Below, piece by piece: positions 42,371 through 62,567 of a stretch of DNA of 64,000 bases. A model generated the notes under the pieces. That model was not told where the DNA came from. It saw only the letters and a program-made list of their open reading frames with translations, and made no database searches. How positions within the stretch are numbered: position 1 is the stretch's first letter; every line of letters starts with the position of its first letter. Origin of the DNA: an uncultured candidatus Porisulfidus sp. (GTDB lineage: Bacteria; Pseudomonadota; Gammaproteobacteria; Poriferisulfidales; Poriferisulfidaceae); the NCBI GenBank assembly GCA_965204575.1, contig OZ241993.1, positions 288,001-352,000 on the forward strand. The letters are read 5' to 3'. The translations under genes and the position numbers were made by a program.

Positions 42371-43060
42371 CTACCTGTCGCTACCCAATTCCCGCTTCTC
42401 ATAGATGTTCGTAATGTGCCGCCCATCCCAGACGTAGCAGAGATGCCGTTCCTGCCGAGCGTTCGAGAGAACGGACGGACGGAAAACAGCGGCGCATTCA
42501 CCTCCGGCCTGGCGGAGGCTATCGTAAACGATCCCATTGGATCCAGACTCGTGTAACGTCCTGCTTAAGTGTTGGCCTGCTGCATGATCGTCAGGGTGAT
42601 AGATGAGTGGCTGCGTGGTTCCTTGTCCGCGCAGGTCATGGAGTTTGCCCTCAAGGTCAACCAGGTAGACCCGCATGTCCAGTTCCATGTGTGGCTGTGA
42701 GGTAGCGCGCAGGAACCGCTCGCGGTAATGCCGGGTTTCGGCAATGGCCGTATCGAGGTGATTCGCGGAATAGAAGACCCCGTAGGAACCATCGGAGAAC
42801 CGGCTGCCGCTCGGATTCAGGTGGGCGAACGCCGCCATAATGATGCTGGTGCCCGGTCCACTGATGCGGTCTTCGGCGGGAAAAACCTGTATGGCGCCCG
42901 CCTCGTCACGAAGCCTGGGGTTGGTCAGCGCGTCCAATTCGAAGATTGCCTCCAGGTCTTGCGGCTCCGCCACCCTCTCGAAGAGCTGGACCGGCGGGAA
43001 TCGGCTGGGAATGATTCGCCAGGACGGCTTCCACGCGATACGGGCAACCGGCAGCGTCAC
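42371..43060 (-). CDS. RES-domain NAD+-degrading toxin
   Basis: RIIPSRFPP, SRFSDGSYGVFY, AIAETRHY and GIVYDSLR (R-E-S) motifs. Confidence 0.92.
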   Translation of the reverse strand: MTLPVARIAWKPSWRIIPSRFPPVQLFERVAEPQDLEAIFELDALTNPRLRDEAGAIQVFPAEDRISGPGTSIIMAAFAHLNPSGSRFSDGSYGVFYSANHLDTAIAETRHYRERFLRATSQPHMELDMRVYLVDLEGKLHDLRGQGTTQPLIYHPDDHAAGQHLSRTLHESGSNGIVYDSLRQAGGECAAVFRPSVLSNARQERHLCYVWDGRHITNIYEKRELGSDR

Positions 43061-43461
43061 GCCCAGCCGCCACGCTCTGCGTCGAGGTACTGCCGGACGA
43101 GGAACAAGTCTGCCACTTGGCCGGACAGCATCCGGTCAAGCGCTGACTGGCCGCCGAACAGGGGGGCGGCGTTTGGCTTCTTCACCCATTCATCGGCGGC
43201 TTTTTCGTCGGGCAGAAGAATCTGAAGCGCCTTGTAGATTCCTATGATGTAGGAGATGCGCTCCAGGGCGTCCTTGGGCAGAACGACGTTGGCATCCTTC
43301 TTCCATTTGAAGAAAGTCGAGCGGGCGCTGAGCCCGAGAAGGGTGATCTGTTCTTCGGCCGACAGGCCCCAAAGCTCCATGATGCGGAAAAACGCACGTA
43401 GGGCGGGGCCAGACATGGCCTTGCGGTCGGGAACTGTCGCCGGGAGTGTTTGCGTAGCCAT
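43057..43461 (-). CDS. Xre/MbcA/ParS antitoxin (DUF2384)
   Basis: LRAFFRIMELWGLS, LERISYIIGIYKAL and W...PNAAPLFGG....RQYLDAERGG motifs; GTGA-coupled to the RES gene. Confidence 0.92.
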   Translation of the reverse strand: MATQTLPATVPDRKAMSGPALRAFFRIMELWGLSAEEQITLLGLSARSTFFKWKKDANVVLPKDALERISYIIGIYKALQILLPDEKAADEWVKKPNAAPLFGGQSALDRMLSGQVADLFLVRQYLDAERGGWA

Positions 43462-43633: not shown

Positions 43634-45013
43634 TCAACTTAAAACCTGCAGCATCTCTTCGCGACGGGTGAACTTCTCCCGCGGCTTGCCCTTGGGTTCG
43701 CCCCGGCTGACTTCTTCCGCATCAATCCGCTGCCATTCCGGAAAGTCGATGCTGCGCACACCGCGTTCCTGCAGCAACTTGGCCAACGCGTCCATTCCCG
43801 CGCGGTCCGCGGGGAGGTTATTCAGATCCCCCTTCAGAGATTCGACCGTCTGCACCGCGCAGGCGCGGTTGGTTCCGATGATTCCGGAAGGCCCGCGTTT
43901 GATCCAGCCCGCCGTATAGATGCCTGGCACGACCGCCCCATCCGGGCCATCGGTAATCCGGCCATCCTGATTCGGGAAAACACCCCAGGAATCATGGAAC
44001 GGCACACCCTCGATCGGCACTCCCCGGTAACCAATGGAGCGAAACAGCAGCCCGCACTCCAAGGTTTCGGTCTCGCCCGTACCCGAGGCCCGTTGCGAAA
44101 ACGGTTCGCCGGACAGTTCGTTGCGTTCCAGTACCACCCGTTCGATCCGGCCGTCCCCTTCGATTCGGATTGGGCTCCGGCAGAACATCATGCGGCAGGT
44201 CCGGGCCTTGCTCTGCTCTGCATCCTCCGCCATTCTCTCGAAGATTGCCATGTTCTTGGCAGCCACCACGCCTGCCTTCTTGTCGTCGACCTCGGCCTGG
44301 CTGGCTTCATTGAGCACCAACTCTTCTGAAGCGATCGCCGCTTGGCAATTTTCCAGTTCCAGAAACTCGCGCAGTTCCTTGGTGGTGAACTTCGCCTGCG
44401 TCGGCCCCCGGCGCCCAACGACTGCAATTGTTTTGATCCGGCTTTCGGCCAGCGCATCCAAAGCGTGCTGGCTGATGTCGGTATGCTTGAGCTCATCGAC
44501 AGATTTGGACAGGATGCGGGCGACATCCGCCGCCACGTTCCCTTGCCCGATGATCACGGCGGTTTCATGCGAGAAGTCGAATTCCCGGTCCCGGTAGTCC
44601 GGGTGACCGTTGTACCAGCCGACGAACTCCGTCGCGGTATGACTGCCCGCCAGATCCTCGCCCTCGATCCCGAGACGGCGGTCCGTTTCAGCACCGCAGG
44701 TATAAATCACGGCGTGGTAAGCGTCCCGCAACTCCTGCGGCGTGACGTCCCTTCCGACCGTCACGTTGCCGAAAAAGCGAAAACCCTCAAGTGCGGCGAC
44801 TTTCTTGTAGACTTCGATCGACTGCTTGAGCTTGGGATGGTCCGGCGCGACACCACTGCGCACCAGCCCGTAAGGGGAAGGCAGACGCTCGATCAGGTCG
44901 ACCCGGGCAGCGATCTCGGATTTCAGCAATGCCTCGGTGGCATAGAACCCACTCGGCCCGGCGCCGACCACCGCGACCTGCAAGGGCGCGGCTTCTGTCC
45001 CCAGTTGGCTCAC
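43634..45013 (-). CDS. ferredoxin-NADP+ reductase (adrenodoxin-reductase/FprA type)
   Basis: VVGAGPSGFY, PYGLVRSGVAPDH, FVGWYNGHP, GQGNVAADVAR, GRRGP and GWIKRGPSGIIGTN motifs. Confidence 0.92.
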   Translation of the reverse strand: MSQLGTEAAPLQVAVVGAGPSGFYATEALLKSEIAARVDLIERLPSPYGLVRSGVAPDHPKLKQSIEVYKKVAALEGFRFFGNVTVGRDVTPQELRDAYHAVIYTCGAETDRRLGIEGEDLAGSHTATEFVGWYNGHPDYRDREFDFSHETAVIIGQGNVAADVARILSKSVDELKHTDISQHALDALAESRIKTIAVVGRRGPTQAKFTTKELREFLELENCQAAIASEELVLNEASQAEVDDKKAGVVAAKNMAIFERMAEDAEQSKARTCRMMFCRSPIRIEGDGRIERVVLERNELSGEPFSQRASGTGETETLECGLLFRSIGYRGVPIEGVPFHDSWGVFPNQDGRITDGPDGAVVPGIYTAGWIKRGPSGIIGTNRACAVQTVESLKGDLNNLPADRAGMDALAKLLQERGVRSIDFPEWQRIDAEEVSRGEPKGKPREKFTRREEMLQVLS

Positions 45014-45017
45014 GGAA

Positions 45018-45323
45018 TCAGAACCCTAGTGCGGCCTTGCGCTCGTCCGCTCCCGGCAGCGGGTCCATTTTCTCTTCGATCACCGGAAGTTCGGGGGCTT
45101 TCTCAGCATTGATTTCGAGCCACTCCTGCTTGTCCTCCGGCAGGTCGTCTTCTTCGTAAATCGCCTGAACCGGGCATTCCGGGATGCAGGCGCTGCAGTC
45201 AATGCAGACATCCGGATCGATGTACAGCATTTCATCGTCGTAGTGAAAGCAGGCGACTGGGCAGACCGTTACACAATCCGTATAACGGCAACCCTTACAG
45301 TTATCAGTTACGATCGTGGTCAT
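45018..45323 (-). CDS. fdxA: dicluster (7Fe/8Fe, FdxA-type) ferredoxin
   Basis: CKGCRYTDCVTVCPV and CIDCSACIPECPV motifs. Confidence 0.93.
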   Translation of the reverse strand: MTTIVTDNCKGCRYTDCVTVCPVACFHYDDEMLYIDPDVCIDCSACIPECPVQAIYEEDDLPEDKQEWLEINAEKAPELPVIEEKMDPLPGADERKAALGF

Positions 45324-45375: not shown

Positions 45376-46188
45376 TCAACGCGAGTCGAACACCAGGATT
45401 TCGCCGCGGTTCTCTTCTATGCCGTCCCCGCAGTAGCGGCGATAACGCCCACTCATGTGGTCGTCGTCGATCTCGAAGCCGCTCTGCCCCAGGTGGCACA
45501 GGTAAAACCTGAGAAATGTCGGCCGCAGCCAGCAGGAATAAGTGAAGGTCGGCAGTAACTCGACCGGCCGGAACGAAACGATCGAGCCGCGCACCATGCC
45601 GGCGCCCGGACGGATGCCCATCCCGCCCATGACGACGATGGTCCCGGCGCGCATGTTGACGCCGACGAAATCGCCCGCCTGGCCGCCAACCGCGATCAGG
45701 CCGCGGCGCATGGCCGACCCCAATTCGTTCTTGACATCGCCGTGGATCAGGATCTCTCCACCCATGATGCCCATGCGCTGGCCCCGGTAGGCACTGCCCA
45801 CCATGTGCCCGGCATCGCCCATCACCTCGATCCGCCCCCCGCTCATCTCCGGCCCCACCCAGTCCGAAGCGTCTCCGGAAACACGGATGACCCCTCCGGA
45901 CATGCCGGCGCCGAGGTGCATCCCGGCGGAACCATTCACGCGAATCTCGCCCTCCTTCATCCCGGCCCCGATGTACTTGACCCGCGACAGGTCGCCTTCC
46001 AGGCGCAGTGAAACCTGGCCGTTCCCGGTCACCCGGAAGAAGTCCCCGACCCGCACCTTGCGGTTGCCGTGCATCATCCCGAGGTTTTCGATCCCCGACT
46101 GCGACAACCCCTTGATTTTCGCGGGGCTCAGGCATTCCGCCTCGATCGGCACCTCGGGCGTCGCGATCAGTTCCAGCTCGGTGTGCAT
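45376..46188 (-). CDS. fwdC: formylmethanofuran dehydrogenase subunit C (FwdC/FhcC)
   Basis: GXGXG beta-helix repeats (IGAGMKEGEIRVNGSAG, LGAGMSGG, GVNMRAGTI) and ELLPTF. Confidence 0.92.
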   Translation of the reverse strand: MHTELELIATPEVPIEAECLSPAKIKGLSQSGIENLGMMHGNRKVRVGDFFRVTGNGQVSLRLEGDLSRVKYIGAGMKEGEIRVNGSAGMHLGAGMSGGVIRVSGDASDWVGPEMSGGRIEVMGDAGHMVGSAYRGQRMGIMGGEILIHGDVKNELGSAMRRGLIAVGGQAGDFVGVNMRAGTIVVMGGMGIRPGAGMVRGSIVSFRPVELLPTFTYSCWLRPTFLRFYLCHLGQSGFEIDDDHMSGRYRRYCGDGIEENRGEILVFDSR

Positions 46189-46190
46189 GG

Positions 46191-47084
46191 TCAGCCGCTC
46201 TCCAGCAGTTCGTAGAGGGAAAACTTGTACTGGCCGAGCGTTCCGCCGTAGTTCCCCGCACTGACGTAGTCCACGCCACGCTCCGCCGCAGCCTGGATGC
46301 CCCGCCGCATGGCTTCGCGCAGCACAGCCTCGTCGAGGCCGTTGACCACCACCTCGTAAACCGCCGCGATGCCTTCCGGCAGCGCCGAATTCTCCACTCG
46401 CCCCCGCAGGGTCGGGCAGTAGGCTTCGTTGGTCGAGGCGATCAGGTTCTTGTAGCGGGAACCCACCTTGCTGCCGGAACCGACCACGCCCTGCGGGAAC
46501 GGCAGGAACACGCCCGCCACGTCGCGCATCGCATCGGCCGCGCCGGAGGCGGCGCGCAGAGCGGTTCGCCCGCTTTTCCCCAGCATCAACAGGTTGCCAC
46601 CACCGATGGCGGGCTGGACCCCGAACACATCATCGACCAGGAACTCTCCCCCCATGATCGGGATTCTCCAGAACCTCCGGCCCCCCACCACCTTGGCGAT
46701 CTGGTGGCCGTCGCCGAAGAACCGCAGCCGCTGGCCGACCGGGACAGTGGTTTCGCCGTCCAACCCGTTGTAGCAGGCGGTCGTCGGGCAGGTCATCACG
46801 CACTGCCCGATCCGTTCGACCAGGCGGGCGCTCATGTCCTTCTCGCTCATCGCGAACAGCAGCACGCTGATTCCCGGGCGCAGGTCCGGCGTGTCGGTGT
46901 CGGGAATCTCGCATTCCACCGCCGCCTCGCATTTGCAGCGGATCACGGAAGTGGCGAAGCCGGTGAAGGACTGTGCCGCGGCACGCGCCCAGTTCTTGGT
47001 GTCGGCGGTGATGATGACGCGCGCGCCCCACATGCCGAAGGCCTCGGCGAAGGTGTCGACCACCTCGGTCTTGCCGACCCTCAT
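46191..47084 (-). CDS. ftr: formylmethanofuran:tetrahydromethanopterin formyltransferase (Ftr/FhcD)
   Basis: ATG 47084; DTFAEAF, GFATSVI, TPDLRPG, RIGQCVMTCPTT, GSKVGS and SAGNYGG motifs. Confidence 0.95.
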   Translation of the reverse strand: MRVGKTEVVDTFAEAFGMWGARVIITADTKNWARAAAQSFTGFATSVIRCKCEAAVECEIPDTDTPDLRPGISVLLFAMSEKDMSARLVERIGQCVMTCPTTACYNGLDGETTVPVGQRLRFFGDGHQIAKVVGGRRFWRIPIMGGEFLVDDVFGVQPAIGGGNLLMLGKSGRTALRAASGAADAMRDVAGVFLPFPQGVVGSGSKVGSRYKNLIASTNEAYCPTLRGRVENSALPEGIAAVYEVVVNGLDEAVLREAMRRGIQAAAERGVDYVSAGNYGGTLGQYKFSLYELLESG

Positions 47085-48757
47085 TTGCCCCTCTTCTTCC
47101 GCCCGTTCCCGGAATTGCGCAGCGGGATGACCTCGTGATCGTGGAGATAGGAGGCATCCACCCGGTAGTTGTTGAACTGGATCGAATAGTAGTCCTCGAA
47201 GAACGGCCGGATCTGCTCCTCGATCGTCGGATCGTGCTCGGGCTCCGTATGCAGGAACCGCCCGATGTGGTCTTCGACGAATTCGTGATCCTCGATGATC
47301 AGCTTGCCCGCCTTGATGACGTAGCGCGGCGCGTTGAACATCCTTTCGCGGTTTTCGTCGTCGGTAAAGATCGTGATGTCGGCATCCGCGCCCACCCCCA
47401 GGTGCCCCTTGTTCGCCAGGCCCAGCGCCCGGGCGGGGGCGGCTCGGGTGATGATGGCGATTTCCGACAGGGTGTATTCCCGGTCCAGTTGCGGCAGCAG
47501 GCAGTTGTTGATCGCCTTCTGGTTGACCTGCCCCATCATCTCGGCGCGAAAGCCCCGGTCCATCAGCAGGCGGATCAGCCGGGGATACGTTTGGAAGGAA
47601 GCGCCGTTCGGGCTGTCGGTCGAGAACATCACCCGCCAGGGGTCCTGCGAGAGCAGGAACAGCTCCAGGCCGATCGCCCACTGCATGGTATGCGTGTAAT
47701 TCGTGTTCTGGTAGGAAAACGGCATGACCCCGCAGCCGCTCTCGCACTCGGTGTCCGCATTGACCCACTTGGTGTCCTTGGAGCGCAGCATCCAAGTCAG
47801 CGGCGCATCCGCCGTCATGGCGGTCGCCTTGCCGAACATCACCATGCCGATGTCGGTGGTGATGTTTTCGTGGGTGTTGATGTAGTCGATGATGGCTTCC
47901 GAGCCGGTCTGGACGCGCTTTCCAAGTTCGCCGGCATAACTGTGGAACTGGACGTGCGCGATGTGCGCCCGGTGCCCCTCGGCCGCTTTCATCGTATCCA
48001 GCGTGGTCTGGACATTGCCGCTGTGCCCCAGGTTGTTGCAGTGGATGTGCGCCGGATGCGGCAGGTCCAGTTCGTCCACCGCCTCGATGAAGGCCGCGGT
48101 CGCCTGCAGCGGCGTGAACTCGAACGGATCGACTTCCTCGTTGACGTCCGTGACGTTCTCGTTGCGCTTGCCCTTCCAGAGTTCGTCGCTGCCCGCGTTG
48201 ACCAGCTTGACGCCGGCCGCCCGCGACGCCGTGACCCACCACGCGATGGCCTCCTTGAACTCCTTCCTGCGGCCCTGCTTCAGCAGGTCGTACAGGAACA
48301 TGTTGTTGCCGAGCAGGACGTAGAAGCCCTTGTCGATCACCGGCGTGTCGTGGAATTCCTCGATCACGTGGCGCGCCGCCATCGGCGGCACCGCCGCATC
48401 GAAGGCCGTGGTGTAGCCGAGCGCGGCGTAGCGGTAGCCCGTGGCGAACGTCGAGGGCGCGATCCCGCCGACCCCGGAACGGGTGATCGCGGTGCCCGGA
48501 TGGACGTCCAGGCGATGGTCCTCGGGCTGCAACTTGCGCGCGAGATTGACTTTCGGTCCGGCGATGTGGCTGTGGATATCGACCCCGCCCGGCATCACCA
48601 CCATGCCGCGGGCATTGATGGCCCGCGCTTTCTCGGAGATCTTGTCCACCACGCGCCCGTCGCGCACCAGGATATCGCGGACCTCGCCGTCGATGCCGTT
48701 GGCCGGGTCGTAGACCTTCCCGCCCTTGATGCGCAGTTCCACGCTGTTCTCAGCCAT
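47081..48757 (-). CDS. fwdA: formylmethanofuran dehydrogenase subunit A (amidohydrolase, FwdA/FhcA)
   Basis: VYDPANG, GGVDIHSHIAG, GVKLVN, HIHCNNLG, HVQFHSY, STDSPNG and KGHLGVGADADI motifs. Confidence 0.95.
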   Translation of the reverse strand: MAENSVELRIKGGKVYDPANGIDGEVRDILVRDGRVVDKISEKARAINARGMVVMPGGVDIHSHIAGPKVNLARKLQPEDHRLDVHPGTAITRSGVGGIAPSTFATGYRYAALGYTTAFDAAVPPMAARHVIEEFHDTPVIDKGFYVLLGNNMFLYDLLKQGRRKEFKEAIAWWVTASRAAGVKLVNAGSDELWKGKRNENVTDVNEEVDPFEFTPLQATAAFIEAVDELDLPHPAHIHCNNLGHSGNVQTTLDTMKAAEGHRAHIAHVQFHSYAGELGKRVQTGSEAIIDYINTHENITTDIGMVMFGKATAMTADAPLTWMLRSKDTKWVNADTECESGCGVMPFSYQNTNYTHTMQWAIGLELFLLSQDPWRVMFSTDSPNGASFQTYPRLIRLLMDRGFRAEMMGQVNQKAINNCLLPQLDREYTLSEIAIITRAAPARALGLANKGHLGVGADADITIFTDDENRERMFNAPRYVIKAGKLIIEDHEFVEDHIGRFLHTEPEHDPTIEEQIRPFFEDYYSIQFNNYRVDASYLHDHEVIPLRNSGNGRKKRGK

Positions 48758-48791: not shown

Positions 48792-50150
48792 TCAGGCCGC
48801 CTTCTTGCGGCCGTTCGCCCGGAGTTTCTTCACCCGGTCGAGGATCCCGGTCAGGACCTCCTCGTCAGTCGGAAACGGGGAATCGAAGGCCGGGCGCAGG
48901 GTGATCGGCACGTCGTCCATGCGATAGACGGTGCCGCCCGTGTTGATCCCGTAGGTGGCCACCATGAAGGCAACCCGCGCCTGCCGGCTGGTGTAGGTCG
49001 GCTTGGCATCCAGCGAAATCACCGGAATTTTCTTCAAGTGCTCAATGGCGCGTTTCGGGAAATTCGAGGCCGGGTCGGTGGCGATCATCATGGCCGCGTC
49101 GGCGTCACCGCGCGCCAGCAGGTCCACGGTGGTGTATTCGCCGGGGTTGAAGCGCGGGTAGCCGCGGTGGAAATTGACGCCGAACGGGTAGCCGGTCTGC
49201 CAGGACACCACGTTGTCGGCGCCGGTGACGTTGCCGTGGCCGCGGACCGGCTTGGCGACGAAGTGCGTATACCTGTTGAGGTCGGTGGCCAGCGCCAGCA
49301 GCGCCCCCGAGTTGAAGTGGCGGCCGCGGGTCATGGTCAGGCCCATGCCGAAGAACAGGACCCCGAAGTTGCAATTCTTCATGCGTTCCACCAGTTCGTC
49401 CAGGACTTCCCGCGACACGCCCGTAATTTCCTCGATGTCGGGATCGATATCGCGGCCCCGCACCAGGGCGCGCAACGCCCACAGCAACTCGAAGTCGCGA
49501 CCGGGCTTGACCCGGATGAGCTGATCCGCCACCGGCGCACTCGGCGTCTTGCGGACGTCGATCAACACCACGTGACGGTCTTTCTTGCCGTTCGGGATGT
49601 AGCGCCCCTTCGGCGTCACGGTATAGCGGGTGAAATGCCGCGGATGGGACTCGGCCGGGTTGCCGCCCCAGTAAATGACCAGGTCGGCGCGGTTCTTGAC
49701 CTCTCCCAGGGTCGACGTGCTTTCGCCCACGCCCTGGAACGCGATGCCGGACGGGCCATGGCACACGGAAGTGGTGGTGTCGATGTTGCCGAGCACCAGG
49801 TCATTGATGGCCACCGCCACCCGCTGCGCCTCGCATGGAGAATCGCTCAGGCCGTAGGTGATCGGGAATTTCGCTTCGTGCAGGATGCGCGCGGCTTCGT
49901 CCATCGCTTCTTCCAATGGCACCTCGCGCCCGTCGATCATCGCCTGCGGGTGATCCTCGATGCCGTGCTGGAGGAACCAGGCCCGGCCGAGAACGCAGGC
50001 GTTCTTGGCTTTCGTAATCCGGTTCGCGTCAAGGTCGACGGTCAACTCCATGTCGTCGCAGACACACCCGCAGAATGTGCAGGTGGCATCCTCGACGATG
50101 CGGATATTGGGTTCGTCCTTGGGGGCTTCGGTGGTTTTGGTGTCGCTCAT
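48792..50150 (-). CDS. fwdB: formylmethanofuran dehydrogenase subunit B (Mo/W-bisPGD and [4Fe-4S] catalytic subunit)
   Basis: CTFCGCVCDD plus ACVLG cluster cysteines; TSVCHGPS; TLGEVKNRADL; SHPRH; RGHGNVTG; WQTGYP; GTVYRMD. Confidence 0.93.
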   Translation of the reverse strand: MSDTKTTEAPKDEPNIRIVEDATCTFCGCVCDDMELTVDLDANRITKAKNACVLGRAWFLQHGIEDHPQAMIDGREVPLEEAMDEAARILHEAKFPITYGLSDSPCEAQRVAVAINDLVLGNIDTTTSVCHGPSGIAFQGVGESTSTLGEVKNRADLVIYWGGNPAESHPRHFTRYTVTPKGRYIPNGKKDRHVVLIDVRKTPSAPVADQLIRVKPGRDFELLWALRALVRGRDIDPDIEEITGVSREVLDELVERMKNCNFGVLFFGMGLTMTRGRHFNSGALLALATDLNRYTHFVAKPVRGHGNVTGADNVVSWQTGYPFGVNFHRGYPRFNPGEYTTVDLLARGDADAAMMIATDPASNFPKRAIEHLKKIPVISLDAKPTYTSRQARVAFMVATYGINTGGTVYRMDDVPITLRPAFDSPFPTDEEVLTGILDRVKKLRANGRKKAA

Positions 50151-50175
50151 GGTCTCAACGGGCAAGGCAGGATTT

Positions 50176-50529
50176 TCATTTGGCGTTCAGGCATTCCACT
50201 TCCACCATCATCTGTTTCGACATCGGCATGCCGGAACCTGCGGTGTCGCTTTCCATCAGTTCGCTGGAAGACGGGCCGTACGGGATGAAGATCATCCCGT
50301 CTGGAAGATCCTCATCTTTGCGCGGCTTCCCGCATTCGACTTCCACCTTGCCGGTGGCACAGGACAGGCGTACTCGGTCTCCGGCGGAAAGGCCCAATTT
50401 ACGCATGGTGCTCTCGTTCATCTCGATGGTCGAGGTGACGGTCTGGTACTCTTCCTTGAGTTTCCCGGCATTCAGGGAGGTTCCCTGCTTGCTTGATCGC
50501 CCGGGTATCAGAATCATCTGTTCGGCCAC
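50176..50529 (-). CDS. fwdD: formylmethanofuran dehydrogenase subunit D (molybdopterin-dinucleotide-binding)
   Basis: LIPGRSSKQG...K..EEY, LGLSAGDRVRL, GMIFIPYGP and TAGSGMP..K motifs. Confidence 0.88.
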   Translation of the reverse strand: MAEQMILIPGRSSKQGTSLNAGKLKEEYQTVTSTIEMNESTMRKLGLSAGDRVRLSCATGKVEVECGKPRKDEDLPDGMIFIPYGPSSSELMESDTAGSGMPMSKQMMVEVECLNAK

Positions 50530-50565: not shown

Positions 50566-50571
50566 ATTATA
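50566..50571 (-). promoter_or_regulatory. -10 box of the fwd operon
   Basis: Minus-strand TATAAT 37 nt upstream of the fwdD GTG; no clear -35. Confidence 0.45.
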
Positions 50572-50703: not shown

Positions 50704-53700
50704 CTACCAGCGGGAGCTCGACCGCAGCAGCACCGCGTGCTCCGGGGACCCGTCGATGTCCGTCCGGCGCACCATGTCGAGATGCGCCTCGAAGCCCGAA
50801 TCGTCCGGCACCGCCGACGTCAGACGCCAGCCGACCCGGTATTCCCGCATCCCGTCGACCACGCCCACGCCCGCGTTCGGCGTCCCGGTCAGGCCCCCCG
50901 GCATCGCCAGCCCGTAGCCGGCCTCGGCCCGCAGGCCCCGCGACGCCTCGAACTCCGCGCCCCCCGGCGCAACACCGCGCACGTCCCGCGCGCCCCACAG
51001 GCGCTCCGACGCGCTCGACGACGCCCCCAGCGTCGGCTGCAGCGAAAACGCCATCCCCCGACCCTGGGAGCCCGGATCCAGGCGCACCGCCGCGCTCGCA
51101 CCCCATTCCTCGTAGTCCGAGTCCGCATGCACCACCAGCATCCGCGCCTTCGCCTCCACGCTCAGCCCCGACCCCGGGTCCGCATAACTCATCCCCCCCC
51201 CCAACTCCACGCCGGTGCCGCTCTCCGCGTCGCCCCCGTCGTGCCGCAGGCCCAGCTCCAGCGACGGACGCAACGTCGCGCCCGAATCGAACTCCAGCGT
51301 CCGCGCCCCCTCCAGCGCCAGCCGCATCCGCAGGCTCTCCGCCTCCGTGTCCGACTCCCCCGACACCGCGTCCCAGCGGATGTGCGTGAAAAACGCGTCC
51401 GCCTTCAGCGCCAGGTCCAGGCCTCCGGACGCCCCGGCCTCCCGCAGCAGCCCGCGTGCGCCCAGCGCACCCAGCCGCATCGAAAGCCCGCTCCGGCTCA
51501 CCGACTGCACCCGGCCCAGCTCGACCCGCGCATCCTGGCGGATCCGCATCGAACCCACGCCCCAGCCGACCAGCGCCCAGGCTTCCACCTTCTCGCCCAG
51601 CTGCACGCGCGCGTAGGGACTCACCGTGGTCATCGTGCTCTCCATCTCTCCGGAGTCCACCCCCGGAACCGCGAAGCCGCCGCCGCCGTCGCTCCGGCTC
51701 AGCGCCACCCCCGCCAGCAGATGCGTCCACTGCGCGTCCGCCCCGAACACCCCGGTCACCACCTCGCCGTCCAGGCGCAACCGCCCGGCGTCTCCCGCCG
51801 CGCCGTCGAAGTTCCCGTCATGCGCCACCCGGCCCCAAGCCGAAAGCCCCGGGCCGCGACCGTCGCGCGGCACCGAGACATGGAACGCGCTCCCCCGCAA
51901 CAAATCCCGCGCCGACAGGCGCGATGCGCCCGACTGCGCCAGCCCGGCCAGCGCCGAACCCAGTTCCGCGCTCCCCGGCGACAGCGACTGCCCCGCCACC
52001 GTCACGTGCGCCCCCGGCGCCAGGCCCTCGAAGCGCTTCGACACCACCTCCGTCAACTGGCCCGCCACCGTGCGCCCGAAGCGCGACAGCCACGCCTTCT
52101 GCAGCGGGTCCTCGTTCACAATCAGGCCGGTCGCGCGCGCGTCCGCGATGCGCGCCCCCACCGCGTTCGACAGCGTCAGCGAAAACCGCTCCCGGCCCTC
52201 GTCCACCGCGTCGTCCAGGATCGACACCGATACCGTCTTCTCCGTCTCCCCCGGCGCGAAGCGAAGCGCCCCGCGCGCCGCCGCGTAGTCCGACCCCGCC
52301 GACGCCGTGCCGTCCGCCGTCGCGTAGTCCACCGTCACCGCCTCGGGCAACGCCCGGTTCAGCACCACCGAGAACGACACCGCCGCGTCGCGGCCTTCCC
52401 GCGCGCGACCGCCCTTCAGCTTCAGCTTCGCCGGCCCCGGCACCGACACGCTCACCGTGTTCGACAGCGACCGCCCCCCGGCCGTGCACACCGCGCCCGC
52501 CGTGCCGCAGTCGCGTCCGCCCGCCAGCGTCACCTCCACCTGCCGCTTCCAGTTGCGCGGCGCGACCTGCACCTGCCACAGCCCCGGCTCCACCGGATTC
52601 ACCGACTTCACCCGGCCCTTCGACACCGCGAAGGACGCCGCCTCCAGCACCGTCTCCAGCGGCTCGCCGAAACGCACCCGCAGCGAGAACGCCGTGCCGT
52701 CGTGCTCCTCCGGCACCGCCTCGAACGACGCCTCCAGCGCGCCGCCCTGGGCCGCCTCCGGCTCCGGGGGAGGCGTCCGGGTCACGACCTGCTCTTCTGT
52801 CGGCTCCGGCTCCGGCTCCGGCACTGCCACCGGCTCCGGCGCCTCGGTCACGTCGATGCGGTAGGTCGTCATGCCGCCCGCACCGCTCGCCATCACCCAC
52901 AACTCGGTCGCGCCGCCGTCCGGCGCGAGGCCCAGCGCCACCGCCGTCCCCGAGGGCCGCACCCGCACCGGGCGCGTGTAGCTCGCCGCGCCCCGGCGCG
53001 AGCCCGCGAACACGCTCGACTCGCCGCCCCAGCGCGGCGCCAGCGTCACCCCCGTCGTCCCCGCCGGCACCGACGCCCGGTACGACGTCACCCCCGGCGC
53101 AAACGCCGGGCTCAGCGCCACCGCCGACGAACCGGCCGACAGCGCGAGCCCGCACAGCGGCCCCGCCGACGACGCGCACGACAGGGCCGCCTCGACCGAC
53201 GCGTCCGGCGCCGCCGACGCCACGACCTTCGCCTCCGAGGTGTTCGACAGCACCCGCCCGTCCGGCGAGCACACCGCCCCGTCCGCGTCGCAGTCCCGAC
53301 CGCCCGCCAGCGTCACCGATACCGCCTTCTCCGCCGAGGCCGGCGCGATCCGCACCTGCCACAGCCCCGCATCGGTCTGCTCCACCGCCTCCACCCGGCC
53401 CTGCGACACCGTGAACGCCTCCGCCCGGAGCGTGCGGCTGTAACTCGTCCCCAGCACCTCGCTGAGGCGCACCCGGAACGCGAACGCCCCGCCGTCGTGC
53501 TCCTCCGGCACCGCCTCGAACGACGCCGTCAGCGCGTCGCCCTCGACCTCCGGCAGCGGCTCCTCGCCGCCCCGGTACGTATTCGTCTGCGGAACGCTCG
53601 ACGCCATCGTCCGGGCCCGGGATAGCGCCCAAGCTTCGTCGATAATCGTTATCGTCGTCGACGCGGCGGCCCCCACGCTGTAGAGCGGGTAGATGTCTCC

Positions 53701-54711
53701 AGGGTTTTTCACGTGGGCCAGGGTGAGGACGACGGTCTCGTCACTCTCCCTTTGCCGGGCATCTACTGTGGGGGTCAGGGTGAACCCCACCTCCGACACG
53801 CCGTTCGGCAACTTCAGGAAGTACTCGGTGCCTTCCTTCACCAGTCCCCCGATCCTGGCTATGAGGGCAGTGCTACCGCCGACTTCACCGAGTAAATAAT
53901 CATAATTGGGGCTGAGGGTGTAGTCGCTGGCGGTGGCCGTGCCGCCGATGCCGAGCTTGACGCGGGCCGATCTGGGCAGCGGCGGATTGATCGTCACCTT
54001 CACTCTCGCGGCGGGGGGGAACGGGGGGCCGTTCTTGACTCCCTCCTGGATCCGGCCATCCGGAATCCGCGGCCGGGTCTTTAGCGACGGATTCACCATG
54101 TCGCCGAACTGCACGACGCTACCCCCCTGGTACGCGACCGCGTTGGGACAGCTGGCGCGGATGCTCAGGGCCACGGTCTGGCCGCGCCGCCACCCCAGGT
54201 GCGCGAACCCGAAGATGGCGGAATTGCGACCGCCGTACTGCACCGCATCCCTGAACGCCAGCGCCCGGCTCCCGACGCACAGGCTCAGATCATCCAGCGC
54301 GGTCGTCACGTCACGGTTGAAGTTCATCGCGAAGTAGCCGTTGAGCGGGTTGTACCGGATCGCCAGGATCGTATAGGTGACCCCGCCGTGCACGAAGTCG
54401 TCGTCCGACAGCACGCTCGTGCTCGCGCAGTTCTCGTCGGCCTCCGGGACGAACGGGGAACTACTACTGCTAGAAACAGTAGGGTCGGTATATCTAGTGC
54501 TGCAGGCCGAGGCGGAGTCCTTGGTGTTCACCGACACCGTCAGATTCGCCGTCCAGACCTGCGACCAGGCCGGGGCGCCCGGCAGCAGCAGCGCGCCGAA
54601 CAGCGCGGGCAACAGCAGCAGGCGACCGGAAAGGCGCGGCCTCCGGGACGACGGCCCCGTCATGGCCGATTCCGTTTCGGGGGGGGGGGGGGGGCTTGAA
54701 ATCTGGCTCAT
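50704..54711 (-). CDS. autotransporter adhesin with cadherin-like and Calx-beta domains
   Basis: ATG 54711 preceded by AGGAG; signal peptide ending PAWS; cadherin-like (LSPAFAPGVTSYRASV...TTYRIDVT); Calx-beta (VTVDYATADGTASAGSDY...ILDDAVDEGRERFSLTLSN); C-terminal barrel (AWLSRFGRTV, ELGLRHDGGDAE) ending in Trp. Confidence 0.85.
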   Translation of the reverse strand: MSQISSPPPPPETESAMTGPSSRRPRLSGRLLLLPALFGALLLPGAPAWSQVWTANLTVSVNTKDSASACSTRYTDPTVSSSSSSPFVPEADENCASTSVLSDDDFVHGGVTYTILAIRYNPLNGYFAMNFNRDVTTALDDLSLCVGSRALAFRDAVQYGGRNSAIFGFAHLGWRRGQTVALSIRASCPNAVAYQGGSVVQFGDMVNPSLKTRPRIPDGRIQEGVKNGPPFPPAARVKVTINPPLPRSARVKLGIGGTATASDYTLSPNYDYLLGEVGGSTALIARIGGLVKEGTEYFLKLPNGVSEVGFTLTPTVDARQRESDETVVLTLAHVKNPGDIYPLYSVGAAASTTITIIDEAWALSRARTMASSVPQTNTYRGGEEPLPEVEGDALTASFEAVPEEHDGGAFAFRVRLSEVLGTSYSRTLRAEAFTVSQGRVEAVEQTDAGLWQVRIAPASAEKAVSVTLAGGRDCDADGAVCSPDGRVLSNTSEAKVVASAAPDASVEAALSCASSAGPLCGLALSAGSSAVALSPAFAPGVTSYRASVPAGTTGVTLAPRWGGESSVFAGSRRGAASYTRPVRVRPSGTAVALGLAPDGGATELWVMASGAGGMTTYRIDVTEAPEPVAVPEPEPEPTEEQVVTRTPPPEPEAAQGGALEASFEAVPEEHDGTAFSLRVRFGEPLETVLEAASFAVSKGRVKSVNPVEPGLWQVQVAPRNWKRQVEVTLAGGRDCGTAGAVCTAGGRSLSNTVSVSVPGPAKLKLKGGRAREGRDAAVSFSVVLNRALPEAVTVDYATADGTASAGSDYAAARGALRFAPGETEKTVSVSILDDAVDEGRERFSLTLSNAVGARIADARATGLIVNEDPLQKAWLSRFGRTVAGQLTEVVSKRFEGLAPGAHVTVAGQSLSPGSAELGSALAGLAQSGASRLSARDLLRGSAFHVSVPRDGRGPGLSAWGRVAHDGNFDGAAGDAGRLRLDGEVVTGVFGADAQWTHLLAGVALSRSDGGGGFAVPGVDSGEMESTMTTVSPYARVQLGEKVEAWALVGWGVGSMRIRQDARVELGRVQSVSRSGLSMRLGALGARGLLREAGASGGLDLALKADAFFTHIRWDAVSGESDTEAESLRMRLALEGARTLEFDSGATLRPSLELGLRHDGGDAESGTGVELGGGMSYADPGSGLSVEAKARMLVVHADSDYEEWGASAAVRLDPGSQGRGMAFSLQPTLGASSSASERLWGARDVRGVAPGGAEFEASRGLRAEAGYGLAMPGGLTGTPNAGVGVVDGMREYRVGWRLTSAVPDDSGFEAHLDMVRRTDIDGSPEHAVLLRSSSRW
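52445..53536 (-). repeat. two copies of a ~100-aa Cys-pair domain within the autotransporter
   Basis: ASFEAVPEEHDG...LWQV..AP...VTLAGGRDC..AGAVC..GR.LSNT occurs twice; identical nt stretch gccgtcgtgctcctccggcaccgcctcgaacgacgcc near 52696 and 53491. Confidence 0.85.
54679..54694 (-). repeat. C16 homopolymer (G16 on +) in the first codons of the autotransporter
   Basis: 16 consecutive G on the + strand, encoding S-PPPPP at codons 6-11. Confidence 0.88.
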
Positions 54712-54852
54712 TGCGATGTCTCCTGGTCTCAGGTGCTTTGGAATCACTCGAGCGGGACGCGCCCGCGATACCAGATTAGATTGGTTTTTCACGGGCCGCA
54801 TCGCCAAAGCGGCTCTACTGTAGAGTCTATCACAAGTTGATGGACCGTTTAT

Positions 54853-56116
54853 CCCCGATCTCCGAGCTAACGCGATTTTGCAGGATTTTTGCCTGCCGCG
54901 GAGTGACGGCAAGAGGTTTTCAAGCGAGTGATGGCCGTTGCGGGGTGATTTCGCGCTTGACAGCGAAGGGTCCGCCCGGTTTTCGAGTTTTCGGCAGCTT
55001 GTCGCGCAGGGCTCCGCTCGCCGCTCAGGCGGCCCGTGCCAGGGTCGCAGCCGAACCGGTCGTCACGAAGTGTCGTAGGCCAGGAACCCGGCCATTCGGT
55101 CCAGCGCCTGCCGGACCCGCTGCACATGAGCCGTCTGGAACACCAGCCGCCGGTTGCGGGCATGCCGCACCACCTTGGCCACCAGGTGGACCCAGCACAG
55201 GCGCACCTGCTTCATCCGGGTCCACAGCCAGTCGCGTCCGAACGCGGCATGCCGCAGCAGCGCGTTGACGTTGGCCGACAGCACCGCCAGCTGCCACCAG
55301 GCGGCGTTCGCCCCGAACTTCCCCGACGGCATCATGCCGCCGGCCAGGTCCTGCTTGAGCACGGCGTGCACCTCTTCGCCATGCCCGCAGCGCTCGTGCG
55401 CGAAGCGCACCACCTCCGAGGCGGTCATCCCCAGGCCCGCCCCCTCCCCGGAGCGCCCCGGATACGGCAGGTTGGTCAGATAGACCCGGTAGCGGTACGC
55501 CGGACGCCCGGACCTCGCCGGCGTCTCGTCCGGGTTCACCCCCAACACGCCAGGCAAGACACGCCGGGTGCCGACATGGTGCAGCAGCTGCCCCCGCGAC
55601 TGCCGCGCGCCCCACGGCGAGACATAATCCAGGTCGGCGCATTCCAGTTCCGGCTCCGAGGCTCGCACCGGCTCCCACCACGACGCCGGCGCCACCCCCA
55701 GAAGCTCCGGCTCGTAGTCGCGCACCAGCCGGCACAGGCTGCGGTCCGCCTCCAGCGCGTCCACGTCCGAGACCCGCTCGTGACCGATCACGTTGAGCAG
55801 CAGCACGGTCAGCATCATCTGCCCGTCGCGCCAGCCCTGCGCCCCGGCCACCTGCACCGGAAGGGTCCGAAACGCCCCGCTGCGGCGCAGCAGCTCCAGC
55901 CACAGGACGGCCCCGCCACAGGCGCTGGTTCGACTCAGATTGGGGTCGCCCCCGATGGCGACCAAAGAGGAAAAATCAGACATATAATGAGACTCCCGGT
56001 TGGTTGTTTCCGGTTCACCCAATGGGTGAAACTTTTGCACCACCGATTTTAACCGTTTCACTCGGTTAAATAAGCACCAACCGGGACCCCACTCTCATTT
56101 AGCTCGGAGATCGGGG
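54853..56116 (-). mobile_element. IS1380-like insertion sequence, internally deleted (1264 bp)
   Basis: Perfect 18-bp TIRs CCCCGATCTCCGAGCTAA (54853-54870) and TTAGCTCGGAGATCGGGG (56099-56116); 5-bp direct repeat TTTAT on both flanks (54848-54852, 56117-56121); transposase ORF inside. Confidence 0.9.
55063..56061 (-). pseudogene. IS1380-like DDE transposase, shortened
   Basis: C-terminal YLTNL...VVRFAHERCGHGEEVHAVLKQDL...PSGKFGANAAWWQLAVLSAN signature; 332 aa with no recognisable central acidic motifs. Confidence 0.7.
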
Positions 56117-61448: not shown

Positions 61449-62567
61449 ATGATGACACCAGTCTACTATCACGTGGATCAATTCCCACCCGACAAACTCA
61501 TTGATTGGTCGAGATTGATCCCTCTAATTGGCCCAGCTGCTGCTGCAATTGCGCGGTACGACGGGATGCTTGCAGCAATTCCAGACCCTAACGTCCTTCT
61601 TACCCCTCTTACTACACGCGAAGCAGTGCTCTCTTCTCGCATTGAAGGCACACAAGCCACTATAGGAGAAGTATTGGAATTCGAGGCTGGACAAATGCCA
61701 GACTCTCCTACACGCTATGACGACATCCACGAAATTCTAAATTACCGTGCTGCCATAAGGGAAGCAGAAAAAATGTTGGCGCAATTACCGCTATCTCAAC
61801 GAGTTATACGAAAAGCACACTCAACGTTGTTGTCTGGAGTACGTGGTGCCGGCAAATCGCCTGGAGAATACCGAAAAATTCCTAATTGGATTGGGCCTCC
61901 CGGTTGCCCTATTGAGCAGGCTAAGTTTGTTCCAATTGAGGCAAATAAACTTCCAAGTGCGATAAGTGCTTGGGAGAACTATATCCATCAGGACAGCCCT
62001 GACCGATTAGTCCAACTCGCTATTTTGCACGCCGAATTCGAAGCGTTACATCCATTCCTAGATGGCAATGGTCGCCTAGGACGCATGATGGTGCCTTTGT
62101 TCCTCTGGCAACATAATCTCATTAGGGCGCCCATGTTTTATATTAGTGCTTACTTTGAGGCTCGTCGCGATGAATATTATGAGGCTCTGCTTGCTGTCTC
62201 ACGTGATGACAATTGGACTGGATGGTGTGTATTTTTCTTGGAGGCAGTCAAAGCACAAGCCGAAGAAAATCTCACCAAAACCCAAGGTATCATTGACCTC
62301 TACAGCAACATGAAAACCCGCATGGCGGATCTGACTCGCTCTCGCTATGCCATTCATGCCCTAGACTGGATTTTTGAGCATCCCATCTTCAAAAGTACCG
62401 ATTTCATTACCACGGCTGGCATTCCAGAACAAACGGCAAAACGAATTTTGAGAATTTTGCTTACCGGAGAAATTCTGAAGAATGTTATTGGCAACCAAGG
62501 TCGCCGAGCTAGAATACTTTCATTTCCTCAACTCTTGAATGTGACAGAAGGTGGCGAAGTATTTTAA
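61449..62567 (+). CDS. Fic-family protein (Fic/DOC N-terminal domain, class II-like)
   Basis: HPFLDGNGRLGR catalytic motif; N-terminal SSRIEG inhibitory motif; C-terminal HTH-like region; AT-richer than flanks. Confidence 0.92.
   Translation: MMTPVYYHVDQFPPDKLIDWSRLIPLIGPAAAAIARYDGMLAAIPDPNVLLTPLTTREAVLSSRIEGTQATIGEVLEFEAGQMPDSPTRYDDIHEILNYRAAIREAEKMLAQLPLSQRVIRKAHSTLLSGVRGAGKSPGEYRKIPNWIGPPGCPIEQAKFVPIEANKLPSAISAWENYIHQDSPDRLVQLAILHAEFEALHPFLDGNGRLGRMMVPLFLWQHNLIRAPMFYISAYFEARRDEYYEALLAVSRDDNWTGWCVFFLEAVKAQAEENLTKTQGIIDLYSNMKTRMADLTRSRYAIHALDWIFEHPIFKSTDFITTAGIPEQTAKRILRILLTGEILKNVIGNQGRRARILSFPQLLNVTEGGEVF

What the first reader, a model, noticed from the sequence alone, without database searches (positions are those of the whole stretch)
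48792..50529. Archaeal-type, apparently redox-active FwdB plus FwdD in a gammaproteobacterial C1 operon
Seen: the gene order is fwdD-fwdB-fwdA-ftr-fwdC. FwdB keeps the N-terminal CxxCxxxC plus later Cys for a [4Fe-4S] cluster, the Cys-His pair (SVCHGPS) and the Arg of RGHGNV, and a separate FwdD pterin-binding subunit is present. Established: the characterised methylotroph Fhc (Methylorubrum extorquens FhcABCD) has no D-type pterin subunit, its FhcB lacks the Mo/W-pterin and Fe-S cluster, and it only releases formate; methanogen FwdB/D carry these features and interconvert formate and CO2. Inference: this is a hybrid complex with Ftr encoded inside the operon as in bacterial Fhc but an intact formate-dehydrogenase module as in archaeal Fwd, able to take formyl-H4MPT to CO2 (or run in reverse) in one complex. 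Some other bacteria are reported to have fwdD homologues, so novelty of the gene set itself needs checking.
Basis: partly seen in the sequence, partly recalled or inferred. Interest (0 to 1): 0.85.

Follow-up and report, generated by a model that had tools for sequence, protein, structure and literature searches.

The report
Bacterial formyl-to-CO2 enzyme wired to NADP
This sponge-associated sulfur bacterium encodes an intact, archaeal-type metal enzyme that should burn its one-carbon intermediate straight to CO2, together with a ferredoxin and a reductase that should catch the electrons as NADPH, a route that is predicted from sequence and for which I found no biochemical test in bacteria.

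Summary
Observation confirmed. fwdD-fwdB-fwdA-ftr-fwdC is real; FwdB keeps the four Fe-S cysteines, Cys-His and Arg of archaeal FwdB. They follow fwdC in 61 of 63 loci long enough to tell. The reductase is missing from the three relatives with only ordinary Fhc, and in one lineage it carries FwdD inserted in frame. FwdC has the Fhc-type tail that docks Ftr. This genome has W/Mo-cofactor genes but no recognisable formate dehydrogenase, FtfL, RuBisCO or Rnf. Best reading (0.72): a formyl-H4MPT to CO2 oxidoreductase making NADPH via ferredoxin. Reverse CO2 fixation is unlikely. The five-gene set is already published for an actinobacterium (PMC7325909), and this scan noted it before on other DNA (Gemmatimonadales, Anaerolineae, a marine bacterium). 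I found in print neither its presence in Gammaproteobacteria (PMC5020050 calls fwdD absent from Proteobacteria) nor the ferredoxin-reductase wiring. New variant of a known kind; nothing is shown biochemically.

The parts
50176..50529 (-). fwdD, 117 aa, molybdopterin-dinucleotide-binding domain IV that caps the Mo/W-bisPGD site
   Evidence: PF01568; 5t5i_D E 4e-13; found in 19 of 19 intact-B genomes and 0 of 33 Fhc-only genomes searched
48792..50165 (-). fwdB, formate/CO2 oxidoreductase subunit with C29/C32/C36/C57, C135, H136, R308 (numbering from the TTG start; probable real start ATG 50150)
   Evidence: TIGR03129 504 bits over cut-off 328; model pLDDT 96; TM 0.89-0.90 to archaeal FwdB and 0.67 to FhcB
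47081..48757 (-). fwdA, binuclear-metal formyl-methanofuran hydrolase
   Evidence: TIGR03121; metal-ligand motifs DIHSH, VKLVN, HIHCN, HVQFH, TDSPN in register with archaeal FwdA
46191..47084 (-). ftr/fhcD, formyl-H4MPT:methanofuran formyltransferase; overlaps the fwdA stop by 4 nt
   Evidence: TIGR03119 and NF002554 over cut-off; best PDB hit 6s6y_D, narrowly
45376..46188 (-). fwdC, beta-helix subunit with an Fhc-type C-terminal tail
   Evidence: TIGR03122; aligned to 6s6y_C over residues 19-266; tail shared by 20 Fwd-type and 16 Fhc-type C proteins
   Evidence: Azotobacter-type ferredoxin I E 1e-32; cysteines invariant in 37 copies; after fwdC in 61 of 63 informative loci
43634..45013 (-).
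   Evidence: 1cjc and 1lqt E 1e-108; follows the ferredoxin in 61 of 61 loci; not found in the 3 Fhc-only genomes; carries FwdD in frame in G018

Best explanation
The seven genes encode the last, CO2-forming step of H4MPT-linked formaldehyde oxidation. Ftr, docked on the tail of FwdC as in Fhc, moves the formyl group from formyl-H4MPT to a methanofuran-type carrier. FwdA hydrolyses it to formate. Formate passes to the Mo/W-bisPGD site formed by FwdB and FwdD and is oxidised to CO2. Electrons leave through the FwdB [4Fe-4S] cluster to the 7Fe ferredoxin, and the FprA-type flavoprotein uses them to reduce NADP+. Ferredoxin plus FprA take the place of FwdF/G of methanogens and of FwdI of ethane oxidisers. 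In this genome the likely C1 source is formaldehyde from methanethiol oxidase (MtoX), and this complex replaces the Fhc + formate dehydrogenase pair. Shown: genes, residues, fold, linkage, co-occurrence, purifying selection, fusion. Inferred: complex assembly, cofactor loading, metal (W slightly favoured, since TupA is present and ModA was not found), direction, and NADP+ as acceptor.
For: All catalytic residues are in register and kept in 96 of 96 full-length close homologues (one of the 96 is from unpublished G117). The model matches archaeal FwdB at rmsd 1.7 A. dN/dS is 0.04-0.12 for fwdB and at most 0.30 for any of the seven genes in 7 pairwise comparisons. Ferredoxin and reductase follow in 61 of 63 informative loci. 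The reductase is found in 26 of 27 intact-B genomes of the order (the miss, G029, ends inside fwdC) and in 0 of 3 Fhc-only genomes. FwdD is fused inside the reductase in G018, with 4 full-length and 3 junction-spanning partial records among 9 cluster members from several databases. G000 has no FDH over cut-off; 20 of 27 intact-B genomes lack one while 3 of 3 Fhc-only genomes have one. G000 has mptG, mtdB, mch, fae and mtoX. mtoX lies just upstream of fwdD in 17 of 80 loci and mptG of the H4MPT gene cluster lies divergently upstream in 38 of 80. An ordinary fhcB follows in tandem in 25 of 80 loci, so the two sets are unlikely to be redundant. Oxidation at -530 mV (PMC11493965) to NADP+ (-320 mV, recalled) is about -40 kJ/mol.
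Against: No biochemistry exists in what I could find. FprA-family enzymes are described as passing electrons from NAD(P)H to ferredoxin (abstract start of PMC6208970), the opposite direction. 7 of 27 intact-B genomes also keep a canonical FDH. The reductase is frameshifted in G023 and fwdB is frameshifted in G395; both may be assembly errors. L088 and L092 have no ferredoxin after fwdC within the fetched DNA. The fusion is one evolutionary event. Genomes are related, so the co-occurrence counts are not independent. An unassigned 734-aa Mo/W enzyme in G000 falls far below the FDH cut-off, but its function is unknown.
Confidence: 0.72

Rival explanations
1. B/D is redox-active but loosely coupled: FwdA releases some formate, and B/D works as the cell's general formate dehydrogenase on free formate. 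Or the ferredoxin delivers electrons mainly to sinks other than NADP+.
For: G000 and 19 other intact-B genomes have no canonical FDH. 25 of 80 loci have a formate-releasing Fhc next door, whose formate must go somewhere. The ferredoxin is the most conserved gene of the set, as expected for a protein with several partners.
Against: D-B-A order is kept in 78 of 80 loci; the other two end too early. In archaeal Fwd, formate is tunnelled internally (PMC6926001). The FwdD-in-reductase fusion ties the reductase to this complex.
Confidence: 0.14
2. The complex runs reductively. NADPH to FprA to ferredoxin to FwdB fixes CO2 as formyl-methanofuran. A second Ftr, an ATP-dependent 5-formyl-THF cyclo-ligase and FolD then feed the serine cycle, giving RuBisCO-free autotrophy in a sulfur oxidiser.
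For: FprA enzymes are known in the NADPH-to-ferredoxin direction (abstract start). G000 has no RuBisCO and no FtfL, but has cyclo-ligase-Ftr2-FolD and serine-cycle genes. The archaeal active site is nearly the same in both directions (PMC11493965).
Against: About +40 kJ/mol uphill from NADPH. No Rnf/Nqr found in G000 and no polyferredoxin among its Fe-S-motif proteins. The operon clusters with oxidative genes mtoX, fae, mtdB and mch. The published F420-coupled Fwd is argued to be pulled towards oxidation.
Confidence: 0.06
3. The B/D module is a vestige or scaffold, as in Fhc. The complex only releases formate, and ferredoxin and reductase are unrelated neighbours.
For: Many bacterial B homologues keep the Fe-S motif without catalytic residues: of 116 aligned sequences only 17 have Fe-S, Cys-His and Arg together.
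Against: Catalytic residues are invariant here and branches are short, unlike true FhcB. D and the reductase come and go with the intact B. G000 would have no recognisable way to use formate.
Confidence: 0.05

Closest known systems
Tungsten formyl-methanofuran dehydrogenase FwdABCDFG of Methanothermobacter wolfeii (PDB 5T5I)
   Same: A, B, C, D subunits; B 43% identical in the structural alignment, TM 0.90; Cys118/His119/Arg288 and the Fe-S ligands are kept.
   Different: No fwdF/fwdG in the operon; ftr is inside it; FwdC has the Fhc-type tail; ferredoxin plus FprA follow; predicted direction is oxidation, in a bacterium.
F420-reducing FwdABCDGI of Ca. Ethanoperedens thermophilum (PDB 8RJA; PMC11493965)
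   Same: Best structural match. An oxidative Fwd in which the polyferredoxin is replaced by a flavin reductase that gives a large downhill pull. This is the closest functional analogue.
   Different: The acceptor module there is FwdG + FwdI (F420). Here it is a 7Fe ferredoxin plus an unrelated FprA-type NADP reductase, with Ftr encoded in the operon.
Formyltransferase/hydrolase complex FhcABCD of Methylorubrum extorquens (PDB 6S6Y; PMC6926001)
   Same: Order B-A-ftr-C; C-terminal tail of C that docks FhcD; several shared basic columns in C.
   Different: FhcB has Ser for Cys118, lacks His, Arg and the Fe-S domain, and there is no D; it releases formate. Here all of these are intact.
fwdDBA-ftr-fwdC operon of Hakuba actinobacterium SAG S47 (PMC7325909)
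   Same: Same five-gene order, with Cys118 and the Fe-S domain reported and no fwdFG.
   Different: An acetogen-like anaerobe in which methanopterin synthesis genes were not seen; no ferredoxin or reductase genes described; not assayed. I did not compare its sequences.
Mycobacterial FprA (PDB 1LQT) / adrenodoxin reductase (1CJC) and Azotobacter-type 7Fe ferredoxin I
   Same: Closest solved relatives of the last two genes.
   Different: Described as supplying electrons from NAD(P)H, for example to P450s; no link to C1 oxidation found in my searches.

Membership tests
Fwd/Fmd formyl-methanofuran dehydrogenase | B subunit with Cys/Sec metal ligand, adjacent His and catalytic Arg | tested here: met
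   C135, H136, R308 in register with 5t5i_B and 8rja_B; 96 of 96 close homologues
Fwd/Fmd formyl-methanofuran dehydrogenase | N-terminal [4Fe-4S] domain in B | tested here: met
   C29, C32, C36, C57 invariant in 42 sequences; not diagnostic alone
Fwd/Fmd formyl-methanofuran dehydrogenase | Separate D subunit (domain IV) | tested here: met
Fwd/Fmd formyl-methanofuran dehydrogenase | A subunit with binuclear metal site | tested here: met
   Ligand motifs aligned with five archaeal FwdA
Fwd/Fmd formyl-methanofuran dehydrogenase | FwdF polyferredoxin / FwdG electron-relay subunits | tested here: not met
   None in the operon; no G000 protein has more than two CxxCxxCxxxC motifs. The 8RJA enzyme also lacks FwdF, so this marks a variant, not exclusion.
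Fwd/Fmd formyl-methanofuran dehydrogenase | Bound Mo/W-bisPGD and formyl-MFR/CO2 redox activity | not testable with these tools
   Biosynthesis genes present; needs purification
Fhc formyltransferase/hydrolase | Ftr (FhcD) encoded in the operon, with a C-terminal docking tail on C | tested here: met
   Gene order; alignment to 6s6y_C through residue 266; binding itself not tested
Fhc formyltransferase/hydrolase | Degenerate B without metal ligand, and no D subunit | tested here: not met
Fhc formyltransferase/hydrolase | Basic patch that anchors methylofuran polyglutamate | tested here: inconclusive
   K/R shared by Fwd-type and Fhc-type C at columns 119, 161, 199, 200, 227, 251, 261 (162 in 60% of Fwd-type), but several Fhc-only basic columns are missing; residue numbers in the paper's Fig. 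S13 were not readable

The most novel reading that the evidence does not exclude
The complex runs in the CO2-reducing direction and, with the cyclo-ligase-Ftr2-FolD cluster and the serine cycle, gives this RuBisCO-less sulfur-oxidising sponge symbiont an undescribed carbon-fixation route. A milder novel reading is much likelier (about 0.4): a physically assembled formyl-H4MPT:NADP+ oxidoreductase that had gained the docked Ftr before losing redox activity, the reverse of the order listed for Fhc in PMC6926001.
Probability: 0.06. Interest if true: 0.92.

Novelty: new variant of a known kind. Interest (0 to 1): 0.64.

Why it matters
The textbook view is that bacteria use a redox-dead Fhc that releases formate, while only archaea run the W/Mo enzyme. 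If the reading holds, many uncultured marine, sponge-associated and subsurface Gammaproteobacteria oxidise formyl-H4MPT to CO2 without free formate and bank the electrons as NADPH. In an evenly drawn class sample this was 19 of 400 genomes in 10 families (one of the 19, G117, is unpublished). It would correct the statement that fwdD is absent from Proteobacteria (PMC5020050) and supply a living intermediate between Fwd and Fhc. It would also offer a compact seven-gene Fwd from a probably aerobic host, which can be tested in M. extorquens.

Tried and rejected
Complex prediction of FwdB + FwdD + ferredoxin gave no answer (score 0.27, mark 0.32); it is not used as evidence either way. The first AlphaFold run on 42 close homologues was poor (pLDDT 61); it was repeated with 116 diverse rows. 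RNA: two sponge metatranscriptome runs of one study hold only 0.08-0.09 of the words; their contigs (mostly 90-98% alike where listed) cover parts of six of the seven genes in the pieces listed (none listed on ftr), but contigs cannot show strand or level and no silent control stretch was laid, so expression is not shown. Promoter scan found 1 site against 1.3 expected and 6 terminators against 5.6; a TATAAT at 50566-50571 is a lead only. Recent transfer from archaea was considered: the intact clade is one side of a branch (support 100) and the 6 archaeal-labelled rows lie beyond a branch with support 99, but the trees have no outgroup, most representative rows are unnamed and the IQ-TREE run is the quick one, so no donor or order is claimed. 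No close copy was found among plasmids: all 224 records with a match were under 60% identity and the 20 listed were 24-29%. A phylum-wide sample found FwdD in only 1 other of 401 genomes, so the module is rare overall. I could not name bacterial phyla for most distant representatives. Chistoserdova 2013, Adam 2019 and Bauer 2004 were not read and may already describe bacterial intact Fwd in more detail.

Full report
OBSERVATION. NCBIfam assigns B, A, Ftr and C over their curated cut-offs; D matches the archaeal FwdD model below cut-off and PF01568 above it. FwdB scores E about 1e-112 against archaeal FwdB chains and 7e-11 against M. extorquens FhcB. In those alignments C29/C32/C36/C57, C135-H136 and R308 fall on the archaeal Fe-S ligands, Cys118-His119 and Arg288; the roles of these residues come from PMC6926001 (passages and parts 2-3 of the text read).

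Two more genes follow on the same strand: a 7Fe ferredoxin (45018-45323; Azotobacter-type ferredoxin I, E 1e-32) and a reductase of the FprA/adrenodoxin-reductase type (43634-45013; E 1e-108). Gaps along the seven genes are 10, 34, -4, 2, 52 and 4 nt (from the coordinates). In these, D was found in 79, A in 79, Ftr in 72, C in 67, ferredoxin in 61 and reductase in 62. Of 63 loci that extend past fwdC, 61 have ferredoxin then reductase; L088 and L092 do not, and L092 has the reductase upstream of fwdD. All seven genes are under purifying selection: dN/dS 0.00-0.30 in 7 pairwise comparisons.

HOST. The genome is one 1.82-Mb contig, 98.75% complete. Titles of the closest records name Ca. Porisulfidus and Oxydemutatoraceae, which PMC12625764 lists as sponge- or coral-associated Gammaproteobacteria (passages read). 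G000 encodes mptG, mtdB, mch and fae, methanethiol oxidase over cut-off, and sulfur-oxidation genes recognised by sequence and motif. It has serine-cycle candidates (aminotransferase, malyl-CoA lyase family, PEP carboxylase, glyoxylate reductase, SHMT; glycerate kinase and isocitrate lyase by motif only). MoaA, MobA and MobB pass cut-offs, and a TupA-like binding protein with ABC partners is present below cut-off; ModA was not found. Not found in G000: a canonical Mo/W FDH, NAD-dependent FDH, FtfL, RuBisCO, Rnf/Nqr, PQQ alcohol dehydrogenase and a second, degenerate fhcB.

CO-OCCURRENCE. Among 31 genomes of the order, 27 have the intact B, 3 (G022, G024, G030) have only an FhcB-like copy, and G014 (76% complete) has fwdC-ferredoxin-reductase at a contig end. 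The reductase is found in 27 of 31; it is missing from exactly the three Fhc-only genomes and from G029, whose contig ends inside fwdC. A canonical FDH is over cut-off in 3 of 3 Fhc-only genomes and in 7 of 27 intact-B genomes. FwdD was found in 19 of 19 intact-B and 0 of 33 Fhc-only genomes that I chose; three weak hits in the second group lie inside long FDH-sized ORFs. In an evenly drawn class sample, 19 of 400 scored genomes in 10 families have B at 72% identity or more, and the next best full-length matches are at 33% or less (includes unpublished G117). A phylum sample gave only 2 of 401 with FwdD. In 25 of 80 loci an ordinary fhcB lies directly downstream. These genomes are kin, so the counts show linkage, not independent trials.

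A NATURAL FUSION. In G018, FwdD is not upstream of fwdB. It is inserted in frame in the reductase: residues 1-276 match the reductase, 270-381 FwdD and 385-577 the reductase again. The 90% cluster has 9 members from NCBI, JGI, Logan, ENA and MetaClust; 4 are full-length fusions, 3 partial ones span a junction and 2 cover only the reductase end. This is one lineage and one event. Because D caps the pterin site of B, it would tether the reductase to the complex, which is the most direct sequence evidence that the last two genes belong to the enzyme.

HYBRID ARCHITECTURE. PMC6926001 states that FhcD docks on a helix-loop-helix at FhcC 216-246 that archaeal FwdC lacks. The window's C aligns to FhcC through residue 266, while five archaeal C alignments end at 203-220, and the tail is shared by 20 Fwd-type and 16 Fhc-type C proteins. 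The operon Ftr is marginally closest to FhcD. The methylofuran-binding patch is only partly testable (the supplement was read but its residue numbers did not come through). The paper lists loss of the dehydrogenase as step 1 and Ftr association as step 2; this complex appears to have step 2 without step 1. In trees of B (132 rows FastTree; 52 rows quick IQ-TREE) the intact copies form one short-branched group (support 100) that includes a record labelled Gemmatimonadaceae, apart from the named archaea and from the long-branched FhcB. No root, so no direction is claimed.

MECHANISM. Formyl-H4MPT -> (Ftr) formyl-methanofuran -> (FwdA) formate -> (FwdB/D) CO2 + 2 electrons -> FwdB Fe-S -> ferredoxin -> FprA -> NADPH. 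With E0 of -530 mV for formyl-MFR (PMC11493965, passages read) and -320 mV for NADP+ (recalled) this is about 40 kJ/mol downhill. The same logic is published for the F420-reducing archaeal Fwd. Against it: FprA is known in the opposite direction (abstract start only), some genomes keep an FDH, and two copies are frameshifted (G023 reductase, G395 fwdB). If no formate is released, assimilation needs another entry to folate. G000 has a second Ftr between 5-formyl-THF cyclo-ligase and FolD (genome 578948-581366). Cyclo-ligase-Ftr2 is kept in 30 of 30 loci of the order and FolD in 29. Among 50 other intact-B genomes, 10 have Ftr2 and 42 have FtfL, and the 8 without FtfL all have Ftr2. Ftr2 is also present in the three Fhc-only genomes, so it does not depend on the redox complex.

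NOVELTY. [quoted passage not shown] PMC7331816 still spoke of an absence of bacterial FwdB (passages). Ten literature searches turned up no assay of a bacterial intact Fwd, no description in Gammaproteobacteria and no ferredoxin-FprA module; most hits were seen as listings only, the library lacks most subscription papers, and Adam 2019 and Chistoserdova 2013 were not read. This scan had already noted similar operons on other DNA, one with an NADPH-ferredoxin reductase, and the Ftr2 cluster several times. I had reached both readings before looking (note). I did not see the FwdD-reductase fusion in those notes. Verdict: a real feature and a new variant of a known kind. It works like an oxidative Fwd built on an Fhc chassis, and it is not a member of Fhc as defined. 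Interest 0.64.

Noticed in passing
L103:8948-11366 (G000:C1:578948-581366): 5-formyl-THF cyclo-ligase - second Ftr - FolD cluster near serine-cycle genes; a candidate formate-free formyl bridge into folate that complements FtfL in distribution.
   Followed up: partly
L213:5859-7589 (G018): FwdD inserted in frame inside the FprA-type reductase (577 aa, P0337), seen in several independent assemblies of one lineage.
   Followed up: yes
L105:2370-7255 (G000:C1:1427370-1432255): YeeE-type sulfur transporter, a 734-aa Mo/W-bisPGD enzyme of no assigned family and an FAD/NAD/Fe-S reductase. Similar enzymes appear in most genomes of the order. Possibly an organosulfur-oxidising step that feeds C1 metabolism.
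   Followed up: partly
L042, L045, L053 and 22 other loci: A degenerate fhcB, and where the locus extends fhcA, directly follows the redox operon, giving both complexes in tandem.
   Followed up: partly
L022 and 16 other loci: Methanethiol oxidase cluster (mtoX, SCO, MauG-like, redoxin) directly upstream of fwdD on the same strand.
   Followed up: partly
P0121, P0122 and archaeal P0131 among the representatives: FwdD-FwdB fusion proteins of 570-606 aa; P0121 keeps Cys-His, P0122 does not.
   Followed up: no
window 42371-43461 (-): Two small genes just downstream of the operon that look like an Xre/MbcA antitoxin and RES-domain toxin pair (recalled resemblance; no NCBIfam match).
   Followed up: no
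window 50704-54912 (-): 1402-aa secreted, autotransporter-like protein with a Calx-beta-like segment, ending 175 nt upstream of fwdD.
   Followed up: no
window 55063-56061 (-) and 61449-62567 (+): IS1380-like transposase remnant and a Fic-family protein, both below cut-off.
   Followed up: no
L216 (G023) and L192 (G395): The reductase is split across two frames in G023 and fwdB is split in G395; assembly error or decay.
   Followed up: no
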